DNA from: a virus
Taxonomy: Duplodnaviria > Heunggongvirae > Uroviricota > Caudoviricetes
Reading direction: 5' to 3' (one strand)
DNA: 6,195 nt
Virus record (IMG/VR): IMGVR_UViG_2728369186_000004
Made by a program: the position numbers and the translations under genes. The number at the start of each line of letters is the position of its first letter. Within the stretch, counting starts at the first letter, position 1. This document shows positions 1-6,195 of the stretch, piece after piece. The notes beneath the pieces were generated by a model, which was not told where the DNA came from, ran no database searches, and worked only from the letters and a program-made list of their open reading frames with translations.

Positions 1-93
1 TGTTCTGAGGTGAGCATATCACCTCTGTTCAGGTGGCCAAATTCAGTAAACCACTTCAGAACCTTATTTCATGCAAATGAGATCTACAATTAG
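1..93 (+). CDS. 3' end of an upstream gene (partial, unknown product); frame 1 open from window edge to TAG at 91-93
   Basis: Frame 1 has no stop from position 1 until TAG 91-93 (...CSEVSISPLFRWPNSVNHFRTLFHANEIYN*), overlapping the tail-fibre start by 23 nt. Only 30 codons visible, no motif recognised. Confidence 0.3.
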   Translation, partial: CSEVSISPLFRWPNSVNHFRTLFHANEIYN

Positions 94-1586: not shown

Positions 1587-1865
1587 ATGACTGAAATTAT
1601 ATATGGCGGTATCGGTGTTATCGCCTTAATTTGTGGTGGTCTTTGGAGACTTCACCGAAATCAATTAGCAACTGAAAATAGATTGTCGAAATTGGAATCC
1701 AGCGACGCATTGTTAAACCAGAAGTTTGAGACGATGCAAAGTAACCATGACCAGATCGCCGAGAGAGTTTATCGCATGGAACAAACACTACACGGTATAG
1801 AGAAGAAAGTGGTTGCGATGGACGCCAAATTTGACCAAGTTCTCGACATACTCAAACAAAAATAA
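1587..1865 (+). CDS. Small membrane protein, N-terminal transmembrane helix plus coiled-coil (92 aa); possible holin/lysis-associated or exclusion protein
   Basis: Strong SD cGGGGGcg (1577-1583) 4-9 nt before ATG 1587. Residues 4-20 IIYGGIGVIALICGGLW hydrophobic, followed by RLHRNQ (positive-inside suggests N-out/C-in). Remainder has heptad-like charged/hydrophobic periodicity (coiled coil). No family recognised with confidence. Confidence 0.55.
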   Translation: MTEIIYGGIGVIALICGGLWRLHRNQLATENRLSKLESSDALLNQKFETMQSNHDQIAERVYRMEQTLHGIEKKVVAMDAKFDQVLDILKQK

Positions 1866-1886
1866 TAATAATAAAGGGGTGAATAT

Positions 1887-2057
1887 ATGAAGAATAAACT
1901 TAAGAAATATTTTGGTTATCTCTTGATTATCGCCCTCACTTATAACGTAGCAATTAGACCTCTGCTAACGTCCTTTGGGCTTGAACTCCCGGCTATGACC
2001 GTGGATGAACAATTGCTAAGGACACTGGCGGGGGTCTTTTCGTTATTAGGGGGATAA
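1887..2057 (+). CDS. Small membrane protein (56 aa), not in ORF track; holin-like candidate
   Basis: ATG 1887 preceded by SD aaaGGGG (1873-1879, 7-nt spacer). Translation MKNKLKKYFGYLLIIALTYNVAIRPLLTSFGLELPAMTVDEQLLRTLAGVFSLLGG: Lys-rich N-terminus, one clear hydrophobic helix, no Cys (so not a lipoprotein). TAA 2055-2057 lies 1 nt before the ATG of the next gene (coupled). Confidence 0.45.
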   Translation: MKNKLKKYFGYLLIIALTYNVAIRPLLTSFGLELPAMTVDEQLLRTLAGVFSLLGG

Positions 2058-2780: not shown

Positions 2781-3128
2781 ATGGCTAAAAATATTTTCAC
2801 TGAATTTCCTACTTATCCGGTCGACCAGCTTTCCGGTATTTTTATCAATGGCATTAGCCCAGAATCCATGACACATGATTTTGAGGCGAAGAGAGTTAAA
2901 CATAAACAATATAAAGAATGTATCCGCGATCATGAAAAAGGGACCGTGTTTTGTGTCGCTACATTGGCTAAACGTCCTAAATATCGTTTTCGTGTAGGGC
3001 AAGAAGTCGATGTAGTTAATCCTTATAGTTTTAACTGTCTGGGTGATGCACGCGCGGTGTGTGTAGGCACAACTAATTACTACATTAAAGGACTCAGATT
3101 TACCGGGTATATAATGGAATACATCTAA
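2781..3128 (+). CDS. Hypothetical protein (115 aa), unknown function
   Basis: ATG 2781 with GGGGG SD 6 nt upstream; ORF ends TAA 3126-3128 and is followed by a strong intrinsic terminator. Protein has 4 Cys and several His but no motif I can assign. Confidence 0.5.
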   Translation: MAKNIFTEFPTYPVDQLSGIFINGISPESMTHDFEAKRVKHKQYKECIRDHEKGTVFCVATLAKRPKYRFRVGQEVDVVNPYSFNCLGDARAVCVGTTNYYIKGLRFTGYIMEYI

Positions 3129-3142
3129 CTCTAATAAATACA

Positions 3143-3169
3143 AGCGACCAATTTCGGTCGCTTTTTTAT
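3143..3169 (+). terminator. Rho-independent terminator between the 115-aa gene and the Zn-ribbon gene
   Basis: AGCGACC (3143-3149) / GGTCGCT (3156-3162), perfect 7-bp GC-rich stem, loop aatttc, followed by TTTTTATT (3163-3169). Confidence 0.7.
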
Positions 3170-3180
3170 TTGGAGGAATC

Positions 3181-4218
3181 ATGGAGATTTTATTTGCTGA
3201 ATATATCAACTACACCGGATTTACAAGAAAAACGCCTCTTGACTATGAACCTATTGCCATTAAACGTTGTGATGAGTTGGGGTACATCTATAACGGTTTT
3301 GTTGTGCCGTGGAAAGGGCAACATACACCCGTTTCTATAACCTGCAAGAAACATAGCACAACGCGAACAATTGCTTTCAAAACTCTTAAAAAACAAGGTG
3401 CGTGTCTTGAATGCTATAAAGAATCATTAAAACTTCCTAAGAAAAAGAATAGAGATAAGGAAGCTGTACTAGATAAAGCAAGCAATGTGCTGGAACGCAA
3501 AGATATGGTTTTAGTTGGATTGTTAGAAGATTATAAAGGATTAGACACAAAAGTTTCTTATAAGTGCAATTGCTGTGATACTGCATACGAAACCATAATC
3601 ACTAGAATCATAAACGATGATGCTGGGTGTCGTCATTGTGGGTCAATTAAGAGAGGAATCAATAAGAGAAAACACACAGACGACGAATGGATGGATCTAA
3701 TTGAGCATGAATGCAGGAACAAACGACTTGAATTAATAGAACAACCTAAATCTCCTATATTGTCAACATCAAAAATACACATCAAATGTGAAAAAGGTCA
3801 TCTTTCTGATTCTTTGGTAGTTTATGGTTTAGTGTATGAAAACTTAGGCTGTCCATGTTGTTCTAAAAATGGTTATAACAGAAGTAAGTCGGGAGTTTTC
3901 TACGTTCAACAGGTCGGAGATTATATAAAATATGGAATAACAAACCATCTAAACCCACAAAAGCGAGTAACTCAACAAGCTAGGGAATCAGGGTTAAAAC
4001 ACAAGTTATTGTGGTATATAACGTTCGGTGACGGAAAAGTTGCCAATGACCTAGAGTATTCCGTAAAACATAACATAGGAAATCACGCTGCACCAAAAGA
4101 ACTAATCCCAGACGGATATACAGAAACATGTGACATAACCAAAGAAGCGCAGATTAGAAAAATGGCAATGGATTTTTGTAAAAACTCCAACAACTATAAA
4201 ATTACATATAGGGGGTAA
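3181..4218 (+). CDS. Protein with three tandem ~74-aa zinc-ribbon repeats and a C-terminal GIY-YIG/T5orf172-like domain (345 aa); candidate homing-endonuclease-like or DNA-binding nuclease-family protein
   Basis: SD GGAGG (3172-3176), ATG 3181. Metal-ligand sets at exactly 74-residue spacing: C55-x2-H58...C75-x2-C78; C129-x-C131C132...C150-x2-C153; C203-x3-H207...C224-x-C226C227, with flanking similarity (WKGQHTPVSITC / YKGLDTKVSYKC). C-terminus has GVFYVQQVGDYIKYGIT (GIY...YIG-like paired motifs), an Arg ~10 residues later (PQKRVTQQ) and downstream Glu (LEYSVKH, GYTETCD). Stop TAA 4216-4218 is 1 nt before the next ATG. Function inferred from motif spacing only. Confidence 0.55.
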   Translation: MEILFAEYINYTGFTRKTPLDYEPIAIKRCDELGYIYNGFVVPWKGQHTPVSITCKKHSTTRTIAFKTLKKQGACLECYKESLKLPKKKNRDKEAVLDKASNVLERKDMVLVGLLEDYKGLDTKVSYKCNCCDTAYETIITRIINDDAGCRHCGSIKRGINKRKHTDDEWMDLIEHECRNKRLELIEQPKSPILSTSKIHIKCEKGHLSDSLVVYGLVYENLGCPCCSKNGYNRSKSGVFYVQQVGDYIKYGITNHLNPQKRVTQQARESGLKHKLLWYITFGDGKVANDLEYSVKHNIGNHAAPKELIPDGYTETCDITKEAQIRKMAMDFCKNSNNYKITYRG

Positions 4219-4219
4219 T

Positions 4220-4573
4220 ATGTTAAGTAAGCATTTTTCTCGCAAGGAATTTAAATGTAAATGCGGAAAATGTGATTATGATACAATCGACGCTGAATTA
4301 CTGGTGATTCTTGAGGATGTACGCGAACACTTTGGGAAACCAGTGATTATTAACAGCGGGAACCGTTGTCCGAATCATAATAAGAATGTTGGCGGTGCAA
4401 CCAATAGCTATCATGTTCGAGGCCGTGCGGCTGACATATCAGTGAAAGGAATTTCTCCTGATATTGTTCATGCTTATCTTGATGGGAAGTATCCTACTCA
4501 ATACGGCTTAGGAAAATATAAAACCTTTACGCATATTGATTCCAGATCAAAAAAATCACGGTGGAATGGATAA
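4220..4573 (+). CDS. Peptidase M15-family (zinc D-Ala-D-Ala carboxypeptidase-like) cell-wall hydrolase; probable endolysin (117 aa)
   Basis: ATG 4220 with GGGGG SD (4211-4215) inside the 3' end of the upstream gene. Motifs FSRKEF...SGNRCPNHNKNVGG...SYH-x6-D (H-VRGRAA-D) and C-terminal FTHID match the metal-binding signature of Peptidase_M15-type phage lysins. No signal peptide or TM segment. Confidence 0.75.
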   Translation: MLSKHFSRKEFKCKCGKCDYDTIDAELLVILEDVREHFGKPVIINSGNRCPNHNKNVGGATNSYHVRGRAADISVKGISPDIVHAYLDGKYPTQYGLGKYKTFTHIDSRSKKSRWNG

Positions 4574-4763
4574 AACAAAAGCGCCTCTGGTGGGCGCTTT
4601 TTTGTTAGAATATGCTGGCGACGTTAGCTATATTTCTGACCATTTTTTCATTATAGACAAATATACCGCAGACGATAAAGTCGTTTTTGACGAAGTAGAT
4701 CCGTCTCTGGTTGAAGTAATGAAAGAACCGGAAGACCTAGAGCTTGATTTAAGCCAATTATAG
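4566..4763 (+). CDS. Questionable small acidic ORF (65 aa from ATG 4566)
   Basis: Track ORF 4536-4763 overlaps the peptidase gene and reads through the terminator hairpin at 4577-4604. The only ATG (4566) has a poorly spaced SD. C-terminus highly acidic (DEVDPSLVEVMKEPEDLELDLSQL). Listed for completeness; probably not a real gene. Confidence 0.2.
   Translation: MDKTKAPLVGAFLLEYAGDVSYISDHFFIIDKYTADDKVVFDEVDPSLVEVMKEPEDLELDLSQL
4577..4604 (+). terminator. Rho-independent terminator after the peptidase gene
   Basis: aaaaGCGCC (4577-4585) / GGCGCtttt (4593-4601), loop tctggtg, then T-run to 4603; begins 4 nt after the TAA at 4571-4573. Confidence 0.55.
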
Positions 4764-4787
4764 ACTCTCTAACGCAATTAAATTAAA

Positions 4788-4809
4788 AAGGGGTACGGAT
4801 GTACCCCTT
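4788..4809 (-). terminator. Rho-independent terminator for the minus-strand recombinase/small-ORF transcript
   Basis: AAGGGGTAC (4788-4796) / GTACCCCTT (4801-4809), 9-bp stem, 4-nt loop. On the minus strand the stem is followed by TTTTTAATTT (complement of 4778-4787); on the plus strand only an A-tract precedes it. Confidence 0.6.
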
Positions 4810-4845
4810 AAAGCGTTTGGTTCGTTATACGGCGATTTAGGCCGC

Positions 4846-5103
4846 CTATGATTTATTTTCTTGTTCTATGAAAATCTTTCTCACCTCATCAGAATAAATG
4901 TCTAGTGATTCCTCATAACATTTTCTGTATTCACCGTAATTACTGGTGGTCTTTTGACATAGCAATTTCAATGTCTTATGTGCTCCATCAATGAAAGCAT
5001 CTTCTCTATAGGTTAGCGGTCTACGCATTTCTTGGTCTACGGTTGCCAATGCCAGGCAAGAATTCATAGATAAAATCAAACCTAAAATCTTAATCATCTT
5101 CAT
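4846..5103 (-). CDS. Small secreted protein (about 85 aa with predicted Sec signal peptide), unknown function
   Basis: Track ORF begins at a TTG (5118-5116); first ATG is at 5103-5101 (MKMIKILGLILSMNSCLALA|TVDQ...): basic n-region, hydrophobic core, ALA cleavage motif. Not a canonical lipobox (MNSC). Mature part ~65 aa with 2 Cys. Starts 5 nt after the recombinase stop, so co-transcribed. Confidence 0.5.
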   Translation of the reverse strand: MKMIKILGLILSMNSCLALATVDQEMRRPLTYREDAFIDGAHKTLKLLCQKTTSNYGEYRKCYEESLDIYSDEVRKIFIEQENKS

Positions 5104-5107
5104 TAGC

Positions 5108-6064
5108 TTAAATTCCAAATTCTTGTAATGGACCTGGTATTTCTTCTTCTGGTTTCCAGTTCTTATCTGTCAGCATGTCTAAACATGGATGCAGAACAAG
5201 CCCGTTACTCTCCAGAATCTGCCTATCATTGATAGTCTTCAAATCAACGAAGATCCGGCCTTTCCTCGGTCCTCTTGAATTTTCTATTACAACTCTCTGG
5301 GTCTTGCCATCGATGTATTCCAGTACAAACAAGTTTTTGTACTTGTCAATCCTGCTACACCCGATCCGTTTTAGAGCTTGCTTAATCTTAAACCGGACCT
5401 TAATGCGATCCTCGTTGTAAACATCTTCTAAATCAAATTCTGCGAGCTTCTCCCAGCCTTGAGAGTCAACAGAATACATTTCCTCTTCTGCCATCTTAAT
5501 TTGATTGTAGAGTGTTTCACGCTCGCTATTGAGGGTAGTAATCTGATCGGCTAGCTCCTTCGTTGCTCCTGTCATAGCAGAAAGGGTAATCAGGTTATCA
5601 ATCTTGCGTGATATTTCATCAATCTGTACTTTCAAAGCCGGAACCGGATTAGCCTTATCTTCAGCAATCCAGATTTTATCAGCCAGCAATTGCAATACAG
5701 CTTTCTCTAATTGGTCGCCGCGAAAACTCCAGTTTGTATGCACACATTCAATACGACTAGAGCGCATTGCATCGCATGAATAACGATATTGGTTAGGCCG
5801 TCTGTTTGTTCCTTTCACCTTAACCATAGCGGAACCGCAATGTTCACATTTCAATAGACCAACACCACTAAGCAAGGGAATAGGTTTAACTTCTTCTTTG
5901 TCTCCAAAGTTACATGCTCTAACACCAATGCTTTTCTTAAGGTGATAAAACTCAGCGTCATCTAGCACACGAGGATAATAATCCTTTAACTCATACTTAA
6001 CGCCATCTACAGAGATTTCCTTGATACCAATCAAAGCGCGGGTATGGAACAACCTTTCAATCAT
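5108..6064 (-). CDS. Large serine recombinase, C-terminal portion only (end of recombinase domain, zinc ribbon, coiled-coil); N-terminal catalytic domain not encoded in frame, so possibly truncated or a pseudogene
   Basis: Zinc-ribbon motif LLSGVGLLKCEHCGSAMVKVKG...YRYSCDAMRSSRIECVHTNWSFRGDQLEKAVLQLL (C73, C76, C97, C107), followed by a long predicted coiled-coil, typical of large serine recombinases. No resolvase-type catalytic domain precedes it. The frame stays open upstream of ATG 6064 to an in-frame TAG at 6167-6169, and that stretch (LNATYTPPPAASHKRHSNWSRA-MIERLFHTRALIG) still resembles the recombinase domain (W-x4-[VI]-x-R-[IL]...Y/L-x-G). Confidence 0.7.
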   Translation of the reverse strand: MIERLFHTRALIGIKEISVDGVKYELKDYYPRVLDDAEFYHLKKSIGVRACNFGDKEEVKPIPLLSGVGLLKCEHCGSAMVKVKGTNRRPNQYRYSCDAMRSSRIECVHTNWSFRGDQLEKAVLQLLADKIWIAEDKANPVPALKVQIDEISRKIDNLITLSAMTGATKELADQITTLNSERETLYNQIKMAEEEMYSVDSQGWEKLAEFDLEDVYNEDRIKVRFKIKQALKRIGCSRIDKYKNLFVLEYIDGKTQRVVIENSRGPRKGRIFVDLKTINDRQILESNGLVLHPCLDMLTDKNWKPEEEIPGPLQEFGI

Positions 6065-6195
6065 TGCCCGTGACCAGTTTGAATGCCTCTTGTGACTTGC
6101 GGCTGGTGGTGGTGTGTATGTCGCGTTAAGGTGATCTGATCCTACCCACGTAATATGGACACAGGCCTAAGCGAGGTTCTTGTTTTCAAATTGTT

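What the first reader, a model, noticed from the sequence alone, without database searches (positions are those of the whole stretch)
3181..4573. Triple zinc-ribbon plus GIY-YIG/T5orf172-like protein translationally coupled to an M15 peptidase
The 345-aa gene has an exact 74-residue periodicity of Cys/His ligand pairs (three tandem zinc-ribbon-like modules, nt ~3253-3918) ahead of a C-terminal domain with GIY...YIG-like spacing. Its stop lies 1 nt before the ATG of a Peptidase-M15 cell-wall hydrolase, whose SD sits inside the nuclease-like gene. The pair is bracketed by intrinsic terminators (3143-3169 and 4577-4604) and the first gene looks more AT-rich than its neighbours. Two readings: (a) a free-standing homing-endonuclease-like selfish gene inserted just upstream of the endolysin; (b) a genuine two-gene module pairing a DNA-targeting protein with a peptidoglycan hydrolase (an abortive-infection or lysis-timing device). 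I cannot assign this repeat architecture to a named family from memory.
Basis: partly seen in the sequence, partly recalled or inferred. Interest (0 to 1): 0.7.

Follow-up and report, generated by a model that had tools for sequence, protein, structure and literature searches.

The report
Homing endonuclease inserted before prophage endolysin
The 345-aa gene is a selfish, mobile "homing endonuclease" of an already described phage family (zinc-finger DNA-binding repeats plus a T5orf172/GIY-YIG nuclease) that has inserted itself just upstream of a prophage's cell-wall hydrolase gene; the pairing with the hydrolase reflects where it landed, not a shared function.

Summary
ORF 3181-4218 encodes 345 aa with three Cys/His modules about 74 residues apart and a C-terminal alpha/beta domain. 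Its stop lies 1 nt before the ATG of a Peptidase_M15_3 gene.

The gene, with its own upstream terminator hairpin and SD, is a 1,082-bp insertion (3129-4210). It sits exactly between the stop codon of a 115-aa gene and the SD of the M15 gene.

- Among 5,426 complete E. coli genomes, 51 carry the uninterrupted junction and 3 carry the insert.
- The 60 nt upstream of the insert are recoded only in insert-bearing loci.
- Alleles 83-100% identical always occupy this same site.
- Distant homologues in T5, T4-like, Vibrio and Pantoea phages sit between unrelated genes.

Family evidence:
- Homologues hit Pfam CapR (34/39), DUF4379 (30/39) and T5orf172/MUG113 (13/39 and 8/39).
- GIY-YIG Tyr, Tyr, Arg and Glu positions are invariant in the family.

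This architecture was described for phage homing endonucleases by Netter 2021 and Barth 2023. The gene is a new member of a known kind. Cleavage and homing are inferred, not shown.

The parts
3068..3128 (+). Recoded 3' end (last ~20 codons) of the resident 115-aa gene. Probable co-conversion tract and/or altered, cleavage-immune target sequence.
   Evidence: This tract is 64-65% identical to insert-free loci, while the first 285 nt of the same gene are 95-99% identical. It is 94% identical to insert-bearing L009. In 5,426 E. coli genomes it is found only in the 3 that carry the insert.
3129..4210 (+). Inserted cassette (1,082 bp): terminator hairpin, SD and almost the whole endonuclease ORF. 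The boundary is ambiguous by 1 nt.
   Evidence: Alignment of insert-bearing loci (window, L001) with insert-free loci (L002, L003). The cassette is present in 3/5,426 genomes and the empty site in 51.
3142..3169 (+). Intrinsic-terminator-like hairpin (GCGACC / GGTCGC core plus T-run) carried by the cassette. An extended lower stem can pair with the endonuclease SD.
   Evidence: Scan. RNA fold -21.3 kcal/mol, z -3.8. The stem is conserved in all insert-bearing alleles, with a loop change in L009. It is absent from insert-free loci.
3171..3175 (+). SD (GGAGG) of the endonuclease gene, 5 nt upstream of ATG 3181.
   Evidence: Read from the sequence. GGGGG is found at this position in L004 and L009.
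3181..4218 (+). Endonuclease ORF, 345 aa: CapR-repeat plus T5orf172-like GIY-YIG homing endonuclease.
   Evidence: (phrog_681 'endonuclease', E 9e-43).
3241..3456 (+). Zn module 1 (residues 21-92; ligands C55, H58, C75, C78).
   Evidence: Pfam CapR 22.5 bits against a cutoff of 24.2; DUF723 14.5 bits. Model pLDDT 80-90.
3457..3678 (+). Zn module 2 (residues 93-166; ligands C129, C132, C150, C153).
   Evidence: CapR 18 bits and DUF4379 16 bits, both sub-threshold. C129 is invariant among the 8 sequences of A2. C150 and C153 are nearly invariant among the 39 homologues of A3. pLDDT 88-94.
3679..3885 (+). Zn module 3 (residues 167-235; ligands C203, H207, C224, C227).
   Evidence: No Pfam hit when scanned alone. 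It aligns with the second CapR module of T5p137. C224 and C227 are nearly invariant.
3886..4215 (+). C-terminal nuclease domain (residues 236-345). Motifs: GVFY241V, IK250-Y251-G252-IT, R262, E292, D311-G-Y-T-E315-T.
4210..4215 (+). Resident SD (AGGGGG) of the M15 gene, reused as the last two sense codons of the endonuclease ORF.
   Evidence: Identical GGGGGTAATATG in insert-free loci, where it directly follows the stop of the 115-aa gene.
4220..4573 (+). Resident Peptidase_M15_3 gene, the probable endolysin. It is the downstream flank of the insertion site and not part of the mobile element.
   Evidence: It is the only annotated wall hydrolase in the intact ~35-kb prophage of strain H2.
4577..4604 (.). 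Resident bidirectional terminator after the M15 gene.
   Evidence: 100% identical in insert-free L002.

Best explanation
The 345-aa gene is a free-standing homing endonuclease gene (HEG) of the T5orf172 branch of the GIY-YIG superfamily.

Proposed mechanism:
1. Three tandem CapR/DUF4379-type zinc modules read an extended DNA sequence.
2. The C-terminal nuclease cuts nearby.
3. When a prophage or phage carrying the gene meets a related genome lacking it, the enzyme cuts the empty allele near the junction between the 115-aa gene and the M15 peptidase gene.
4. Recombinational repair from the HEG-bearing allele copies in the 1.08-kb cassette together with some flanking sequence.
5. The HEG-bearing allele is spared because the sequence next to the insertion point is different.

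The cassette brings its own terminator hairpin and SD. It ends so that the resident SD of the peptidase gene is kept intact, which minimises cost to the host phage.

Shown here: the architecture, the fold, the precise presence/absence polymorphism, the linked recombinant flank, site fidelity and purifying selection.

Inferred: DNA cleavage, the target sequence, the immunity of the occupied allele, and current mobility. The window's copy sits in an IS-bounded prophage remnant and cannot spread as a phage.
For: Insertion polymorphism:
- The insert is 3129-4210, exactly between the TAA of the 115-aa gene and GGGGGTAATATG of the M15 gene.
- It is present in 3/5,426 complete E. coli genomes, against 51 with the contiguous empty site.

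Linked flank:
- The last 63 nt of the 115-aa gene are 64-65% identical to empty-site loci. Those loci are otherwise 95-99% identical in that gene. The same 63 nt are 94% identical to HEG-bearing L009, which is only 85% identical upstream.
- The recoded tail occurs only in HEG-bearing genomes.

Site fidelity:
- Alleles 83-100% identical (L001, L004-L009) all lie at this site with the same hairpin.

Family:
- phrog_681 'endonuclease', E 9e-43.
- Of 39 homologues, 34 hit Pfam CapR, 30 DUF4379, 13 T5orf172, 8 MUG113 and 4 GIY-YIG.
- Pantoea phage AAM22 gp74 (tblastn E 1e-15) has CapR x3 plus T5orf172 at 39.6 bits.
- T5p137 gives BLASTP E 3e-28.
- 213 BFVD models match at E<=1e-3. They are named 'CapR homology', 'T5 Orf172', 'GIY-YIG' or 'homing endonuclease'.

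Fold and residues:
- Mean pLDDT of the model is 81.6.
- Y241, K250, G252, R262, E292 and E315 are invariant.

Selection:
- dN/dS is 0.09-0.14, like the neighbouring genes.

Context of distant homologues:
- They lie between gp2 and gp3 (ECD7), a TetR gene and primase (AAM22), a tail chaperone and tape measure (VnaP), and tail genes (T5).

Literature:
- The same architecture is described for T5orf172 HEGs, 87% of which carry CapR/DUF723/DUF4379 fingers, often repeated (PMC10448857).
- The CapR cysteines are required for DNA binding (PMC8096241).
Against: - The window protein itself passes no curated Pfam threshold: CapR 22.5 against 24.2 bits, MUG113 14.8 against 22.3, and no T5orf172 hit. Family assignment therefore rests on homologues and on the fold.
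- No nuclease activity, cut site or super-Mendelian inheritance was measured.
- All close alleles are at one site, so movement to new sites is not seen.
- The recombinant flank could arise from ordinary recombination between diverged prophages without any cleavage.
- The right flank (M15 gene) is moderately diverged (83-97% per 60 nt) but does not clearly resemble any sampled HEG-bearing donor.
- Foldseek against the PDB gave nothing significant.
Confidence: 0.85

Rival explanations
1. Domesticated or dual-function DNA-binding protein. The gene persists because its zinc modules bind the lysis-gene junction (or another site) and regulate transcription, as PLE CapR represses ICP1 capsid genes or I-TevI autorepresses. 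Cleavage would be lost or secondary.
For: - Purifying selection is as strong as in the neighbouring genes (dN/dS 0.09-0.14).
- CapR-type domains act as a repressor in PLE (PMC8096241).
- A CapR-only 189-aa protein exists in the same prophage family.
- The gene is retained in an IS-bounded remnant.
Against: - The nuclease domain is full length and keeps every family-invariant GIY-YIG position.
- The nuclease domain's dN/dS (0.06-0.13) is as low as that of the DNA-binding part.
- 51 of 54 prophages of this family do without the gene.
Confidence: 0.08
2. Functional two-gene module: the nuclease-like protein and the M15 peptidase act together as an abortive-infection or lysis-timing device.
For: - The stop and ATG are 1 nt apart, and the SD lies inside the upstream ORF.
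- All close alleles are adjacent to the M15 gene.
Against: - The M15 gene occurs without the nuclease gene in 51 of 54 genomes, with the same SD and the same spacing to the preceding stop.
- Distant homologues have unrelated neighbours.
- No PADLOC model matches either protein.
- The M15 gene is the only annotated wall hydrolase of the intact prophage, so it is an ordinary endolysin candidate.
Confidence: 0.03
3. Ancestral gene that was lost: the 345-aa gene is original to the prophage, and the 51 'empty' loci descend from a precise deletion.
For: The gene is found in diverged backgrounds (the flanking genes of L004 are 78-85% identical to the window's), which suggests some age.
Against: - A deletion would have to remove exactly the hairpin, SD and ORF while recreating a stop-SD-ATG junction.
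- The window's background is 99% identical to empty-site L003 up to about 60 nt from the insert, then switches to an L009-like sequence. That is a recombination breakpoint, not a deletion scar.
- The recoded tail is never seen without the gene.
Confidence: 0.04

Closest known systems
T5orf172-family homing endonucleases with CapR/DUF723/DUF4379 zinc-finger repeats (Vibrio phage ICP1 gp165, gp174, gp130 and others; Barth, Dunham & Seed 2023, PMC10448857; Netter et al. 2021, PMC8096241)
   Same: - N-terminal repeated Cys-pair zinc modules and a C-terminal T5orf172-type GIY-YIG domain.
- Free-standing gene between conserved or essential phage genes.
- Mosaic alleles and domain-level recombination.
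- Flanks mark boundaries of genetic exchange.
   Different: - Here the gene is in a temperate, serine-recombinase prophage of E. coli, next to the endolysin gene.
- The nuclease domain belongs to a 'PDGYTET' sub-branch that the Pfam T5orf172 model does not reach directly.
- Ligand spacing is C-x2-C/H, then 16-17 residues, then C-x2-C, rather than CapR's CxxC-(24-26)-CxC.
- Two of the three first knuckles use His.
Phage T5 T5p137 (AAU05276.1, 270 aa, annotated 'hypothetical protein', located between tail genes)
   Same: - BLASTP E 3e-28 over modules 2-3 and the nuclease domain, including the IKFGIT, R, LE and PDGYTETC motifs.
- Pfam CapR 85.7 bits with 2 stretches.
   Different: - Two zinc modules instead of three.
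- Lytic phage, with tail-gene neighbours.
- 27% identity.
T4 Seg (SegA-G) and I-TevI GIY-YIG homing endonucleases
   Same: - Free-standing or intron-borne selfish genes spread by double-strand-break repair with co-conversion of flanks.
- 'Beads on a string' modular design.
   Different: - In those enzymes the nuclease is N-terminal and the DNA-binding domain (HTH or other) is C-terminal. Here the order is reversed and DNA binding is by repeated zinc modules.
- No detectable sequence similarity.
PLE CapR (Vibrio cholerae phage satellite repressor)
   Same: The same type of Cys-pair DNA-binding module. The Pfam family CapR (PF21817) is named after it.
   Different: CapR has lost the nuclease domain and acts as a transcriptional repressor. 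The window protein keeps a complete nuclease domain.
SLX1 / HIGLE structure-specific GIY-YIG nucleases
   Different: Eukaryotic repair nucleases with a RING/PHD partner domain. Only 12-15% identity, with no functional or evolutionary closeness implied beyond the superfamily.

Membership tests
T5orf172-type GIY-YIG homing endonucleases with CapR-like zinc-finger repeats | Nuclease domain matches the T5orf172 (PF10544) or MUG113 (PF13455) profile | tested here: inconclusive
   The window protein gives no T5orf172 hit; MUG113 scores 14.8 bits against a cutoff of 22.3. Its homologues do match: 13/39 hit T5orf172 and 8/39 hit MUG113. AAM22 gp74 scores 39.6 bits, and P0033 and P0035 score 27-29 bits. 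These members share the aligned motifs Y..IK[YI]G[IV]T..R..E..DGYTE[TW].
T5orf172-type GIY-YIG homing endonucleases with CapR-like zinc-finger repeats | GIY-YIG alpha/beta fold of the nuclease domain | tested here: met
   [not shown]
T5orf172-type GIY-YIG homing endonucleases with CapR-like zinc-finger repeats | Catalytic-core residues present (Tyr of GIY, Tyr of YIG, Arg, Glu) | tested here: met
   Y241, G252, R262 and E292 are invariant in 39 homologues, with a Tyr/Ile/Phe at position 251. A weak profile alignment to the GIY-YIG protein 1ywl places Y241, the Y251-G252 'YIG' position, R262 and E292 on its corresponding residues (E 0.23, not significant on its own). The catalytic role is inferred, not measured.
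T5orf172-type GIY-YIG homing endonucleases with CapR-like zinc-finger repeats | One or more CapR/DUF723/DUF4379 zinc-finger DNA-binding modules with two conserved Cys pairs | tested here: inconclusive
   Module 1 scores CapR 22.5 bits and module 2 scores 18 bits (cutoff 24.2). Module 2 scores DUF4379 16 bits (cutoff 24.5). Module 3 has no hit. Among homologues, 34/39 hit CapR (best 8.6e-57) and 30/39 hit DUF4379. Each module has two ligand pairs, but their spacing (16-17 residues) and the His substitutions differ from CapR's CxxC-(24-26)-CxC (PMC8096241). Zinc binding was not tested.
Free-standing homing endonuclease genes (operational definition) | Presence/absence polymorphism at one precise site between otherwise collinear genomes | tested here: met
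   3 genomes carry the insert and 51 carry the contiguous empty site, among 5,426 E. coli genomes. The boundaries are defined to within 1 nt.
Free-standing homing endonuclease genes (operational definition) | Flanking sequence co-inherited with the gene (co-conversion tract or altered target) | tested here: met
   Left flank 3068-3128: identity switches from L003-like (99%) to L009-like (94%) within about 63 nt of the insert. This tail is seen only with the gene. The right flank is ambiguous.
Free-standing homing endonuclease genes (operational definition) | Site-specific cleavage of the empty allele and super-Mendelian inheritance | not testable with these tools
   This needs purified protein and cleavage mapping, and phage or prophage crosses.
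Toxin/abortive-infection or lysis module pairing a nuclease with an M15 peptidase | Conserved co-occurrence of the two genes across homologues | tested here: not met
   The M15 gene occurs without the nuclease gene in 51/54 genomes. Four distant homologues have other neighbours. There is no PADLOC hit.
CapR-like domesticated repressors (PLE CapR) | DNA-binding module only, with the nuclease domain absent | tested here: not met
   A full-length nuclease domain with its invariant residues is retained.

The most novel reading that the evidence does not exclude
The prophage-borne endonuclease is more than a passenger. From the lysogen, or during induction, it cuts superinfecting or co-resident relatives that carry the empty junction in their lysis cassette. 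That would give its host prophage a competitive exclusion advantage. Its cassette-borne terminator and SD-sequestering hairpin would then also retune expression of the downstream endolysin. This would make a temperate-phage T5orf172 HEG a weapon in inter-prophage conflict, analogous to ICP1 Odn acting against PLE.
Probability: 0.1. Interest if true: 0.5.

Novelty: new member of a known kind. Interest (0 to 1): 0.2.

Why it matters
Mostly as a clean annotation. A gene labelled 'hypothetical protein' in RefSeq can be named a CapR-repeat/T5orf172-like homing endonuclease. Its apparent operon partnership with the endolysin can be dismissed as an insertion-site effect.

The locus is also a tidy natural example of the family outside lytic phages:
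- the insertion boundary is defined to within 1 nt;
- an empty site is available in 51 genomes;
- a recombination breakpoint of about 60 nt lies next to the insert;
- three diverged alleles occupy the same site.

That makes it a convenient system for mapping the target and cleavage site of a T5orf172 enzyme, and for asking how three tandem zinc modules specify a long DNA target. It does not open a new category.

Tried and rejected
- Direct sequence search of the 345-aa protein against PDB sequences: only chance hits (lamin, Fab).
- Profile of the C-terminal domain against the PDB: the best hit is the GIY-YIG protein 1ywl at E 0.23, not significant alone.
- Foldseek of the whole model against the PDB: nothing at E<=0.001, and only SLX1 7cq2 has a notable local probability (0.84). 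No solved structure matches the zinc modules.
- NCBIfam: no meaningful hit.
- PADLOC: no hit for the nuclease, the peptidase or the neighbouring small genes.
- megablast of the whole window against the phage collection: only the IS ends matched, so no sequenced phage carries this locus at high identity.
- Promoter scan: 12 sites against 10.8 expected, and none upstream of the gene, so no evidence for a cassette promoter.
- AT-richness as a sign of foreign origin: rejected as too small (3 GC points).
- Right-flank co-conversion: considered, but left open because the window's M15 gene is closer to empty-site loci (91.5-92.4%) than to the sampled HEG-bearing loci (76-87%).
- A second structure prediction for a single zinc module was not run, because no fold-search jobs remained.
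Full report
**1. What is in the sequence**

ORF 3181-4218 (+) encodes 345 aa. Its TAA (4216-4218) is followed by one base and then ATG 4220 of a 117-aa protein. That protein matches Pfam Peptidase_M15_3 (E 3.5e-28) and phrog_894 'endolysin'. The purine run AGGGGG (4210-4215) is at once the last two sense codons of the long ORF and the SD of the peptidase gene.

Cys/His pairs lie at 55/58 and 75/78, 129/132 and 150/153, and 203/207 and 224/227. The period is therefore 74 residues, with one interval of 75. The three units are only weakly alike in sequence (z about 5 for neighbouring units). The AlphaFold model (39-sequence alignment, mean pLDDT 81.6) repeats the same helix, three strands, helix pattern three times. 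The first ligand pair sits at a hairpin and the second at a helix N-terminus, which is a treble-clef-like layout. An alpha/beta domain follows at residues 238-343.

Terminator-like hairpins at 3142-3169 and 4577-4604 are real. The gene's GC content (35.9%) is only 3 points below that of its immediate neighbours.

**2. It is an insertion**

The window, apart from IS ends at 1-58 and 6137-6195, matches a prophage found in many E. coli genomes. The gene order is tail-tip J, three small genes, a 115-aa gene, the M15 peptidase, a variable segment, and a serine recombinase.

In strain H2 and most others, the 115-aa gene's stop is followed directly by GGGGGTAAT and the peptidase ATG. In the window and in strain E275a, 1,082 bp (3129-4210) lie between that stop and GGGGG.

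- The inserted DNA is found in 3 of 5,426 complete genomes, and in one of these it is split by IS2.
- The contiguous empty junction is found in 51 genomes.
- The last ~60 nt of the 115-aa gene (3068-3128) are recoded in insert-bearing loci: 6 of 20 codons change the amino acid and many more carry silent differences.
- This recoded version occurs in no genome that lacks the insert.

The phylogenetic signal flips at that point. Upstream, the window is 99% identical to empty-site L003 and 85% identical to insert-bearing L009. Within the last 63 nt it is 65% identical to L003 and 94% identical to L009. This is a recombination breakpoint next to the insert, as expected if the gene came in by break repair with co-conversion.

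The right flank (the peptidase gene) is more diverged than the sequence beyond it, but it does not resemble a sampled donor. I leave that side open.

**3. Site fidelity against family-wide context**

Alleles 83% and 92% identical in protein (P0002, P0001) lie at exactly the same site in their contigs. They carry the same upstream hairpin and the same recoded tail.

Distant homologues (25-30% identity) are abundant in lytic phages: 290 phage records by tblastn. They sit between unrelated genes:
- gp2 and gp3 in the T4-like phage ECD7;
- a TetR gene and the primase gene in Pantoea phage AAM22;
- a tail chaperone and the tape measure in Vibrio phage VnaP;
- tail genes in T5.

The link to an M15 peptidase is therefore a property of this one target site, not of the protein family. 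In the intact ~35-kb prophage of strain H2, the M15 protein is the only annotated wall hydrolase. It is thus an ordinary endolysin candidate, and a conserved gene of the kind such elements tend to sit beside (PMC10448857).

**4. What the protein is**

- phrog_681 'endonuclease' matches residues 25-340 at E 9e-43.
- The window protein itself stays just under Pfam's thresholds. CapR scores 22.5 and 18 bits for modules 1 and 2 (cutoff 24.2). MUG113 scores 14.8 bits for the C-terminal domain (cutoff 22.3).
- Among 39 aligned homologues, 34 match CapR, 30 DUF4379 ('probable treble clef zinc finger'), 13 T5orf172, 8 MUG113 and 4 GIY-YIG.
- AAM22 gp74 has three CapR stretches plus T5orf172 at 39.6 bits.
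- Phage T5 T5p137 aligns over two modules and the whole C-terminal domain at E 3e-28.
- A profile search of 1.84 billion representatives found 34,671 relatives at E<=1e-3.
- 213 viral models match at E<=1e-3. Many are named 'CapR homology', 'T5 Orf172', 'GIY-YIG' or 'homing endonuclease'.
- The invariant columns are Y241, K250, G252, R262, E292 and T314-E315, with Y313 nearly invariant in A3 and invariant in A4. They reproduce the GIY / YIG / Arg / Glu pattern. Two members reading DGYTEW bridge to the Pfam-recognised T5orf172 proteins.

**5. State of the gene**

dN/dS between alleles is 0.09-0.14 overall, and 0.06-0.13 in the nuclease domain. This is similar to the neighbouring genes, so the protein is under selection.

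The alleles are mosaics. Against L009, dS is 0.10 in the zinc region and 0.60 in the nuclease region. Against L004 it is 1.42 and 0.42. This fits the domain shuffling reported for the family (PMC10448857).

**6. Expression features**

The cassette carries a hairpin plus T-run and then GGAGG 5 nt before the ATG. In the predicted RNA fold (-21.3 kcal/mol, z -3.8) the lower stem pairs CUCU (3129-3132) with GGAG of that SD. The stem is kept in all alleles.

Whether it terminates transcription, masks the SD or does both is not known. From my own knowledge, hairpins that sequester the ribosome-binding site are known for T4 endonuclease genes. I treat that as a lead only. No promoter signal above chance was found.

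**7. Comparison with what is known**

Netter et al. 2021 (PMC8096241) showed that the CapR cysteine pairs are needed for DNA binding, and that the ICP1 proteins with this domain carry a C-terminal T5orf172 domain. Barth, Dunham and Seed 2023 (PMC10448857) found that 87% of 229 T5orf172 HEGs carry CapR, DUF723 or DUF4379 fingers, often repeated. They also found that such genes lie next to essential genes and at boundaries of genetic exchange. T5orf172 endonucleases in temperate phages have also been noted (PMC4047441).

The window gene fits this description in architecture, fold, distribution and flank signature. It differs in four respects:
- its host is a serine-recombinase E. coli prophage;
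- its site is upstream of the endolysin gene;
- its ligand spacing differs and His is used in two of the three first knuckles;
- it belongs to a 'PDGYTET' sub-branch that the Pfam nuclease models do not reach.

**8. Verdict**

The gene is a new member of a known kind. Nuclease activity, target sequence and homing remain inferences. Interest is low (0.2), although the locus would be a convenient model for mapping a T5orf172 target.

Noticed in passing
window 1-58 and 6137-6195; ORFs 71-1480 and 5108-6136: Both window ends match IS3-family insertion-sequence ends; the left end lies under an IS911 annotation in phage Sf6. The tail-tip J gene is cut to its C-terminal 469 aa. The serine recombinase is cut to about 342 of 560 aa. 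The window is therefore a ~6.1-kb prophage remnant between two IS copies.
   Followed up: partly
L003:4961-8349, L008:5425-8815, L009:3375-6589 (the position corresponds to window 4574-5107): Related prophages carry three extra genes between the M15 gene and the recombinase. These are a UvsW-like DEAD-box helicase, a 184-189-aa protein that in L008 has only a CapR domain (24.6 bits), and a second 391-aa CapR + MUG113/T5orf172 'GIY-YIG nuclease'. In L008 the M15 gene is bracketed by two T5orf172-like genes, a 'HEG island' layout. The window has only 534 nt in this position.
   Followed up: partly
window 3181-4218 compared with L004:4001-5038 and L009:1552-2589: The endonuclease alleles are mosaics. 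Against L009, dS is 0.10 in the zinc-module region and 0.60 in the nuclease region. Against L004 it is 1.42 and 0.42. This indicates recombination within the gene.
   Followed up: partly
window 3129-3175: The lower stem of the cassette's terminator hairpin can pair CUCU (3129-3132) with GGAG of the endonuclease SD (RNA fold -21.3 kcal/mol, z -3.8). This could mask translation on read-through transcripts.
   Followed up: partly
E. coli HCP5S3_I4, NZ_CM149869.1 around 2488482-2491012: One of the three E. coli copies of the endonuclease gene is interrupted by IS2 after nt 566 of the cassette. This is an example of decay of the element.
   Followed up: no
protein P0006 (508 aa, metagenomic): A CapR module and the PDGYTET nuclease domain are fused in frame to an ATP-dependent DNA ligase (PF01068, PF14743). 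This is either a read-through of an endonuclease inserted just upstream of a ligase gene or a genuine fusion.
   Followed up: no
L013 (E. coli H2, NZ_CP028733.1 2523565-2559160): The intact ~35-kb prophage is integrated inside the antitoxin gene hicB, which is annotated as two partial pieces on either side. hicA is left next to a truncated hicB.
   Followed up: no
window 1587-2057: Two small ORFs lie upstream in the same operon: a 92-aa protein with a hydrophobic N-terminus and a coiled coil, and a 56-aa hydrophobic protein. They could be holin-like partners of the M15 endolysin. No family hit supports this.
   Followed up: no
window 4846-5118 (-): A 90-aa ORF has a signal-peptide or lipoprotein-like N-terminus (MKMIKILGLILSMNSCLALA) and no Pfam or PHROG hit. 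It lies in the variable segment next to the recombinase.
   Followed up: no
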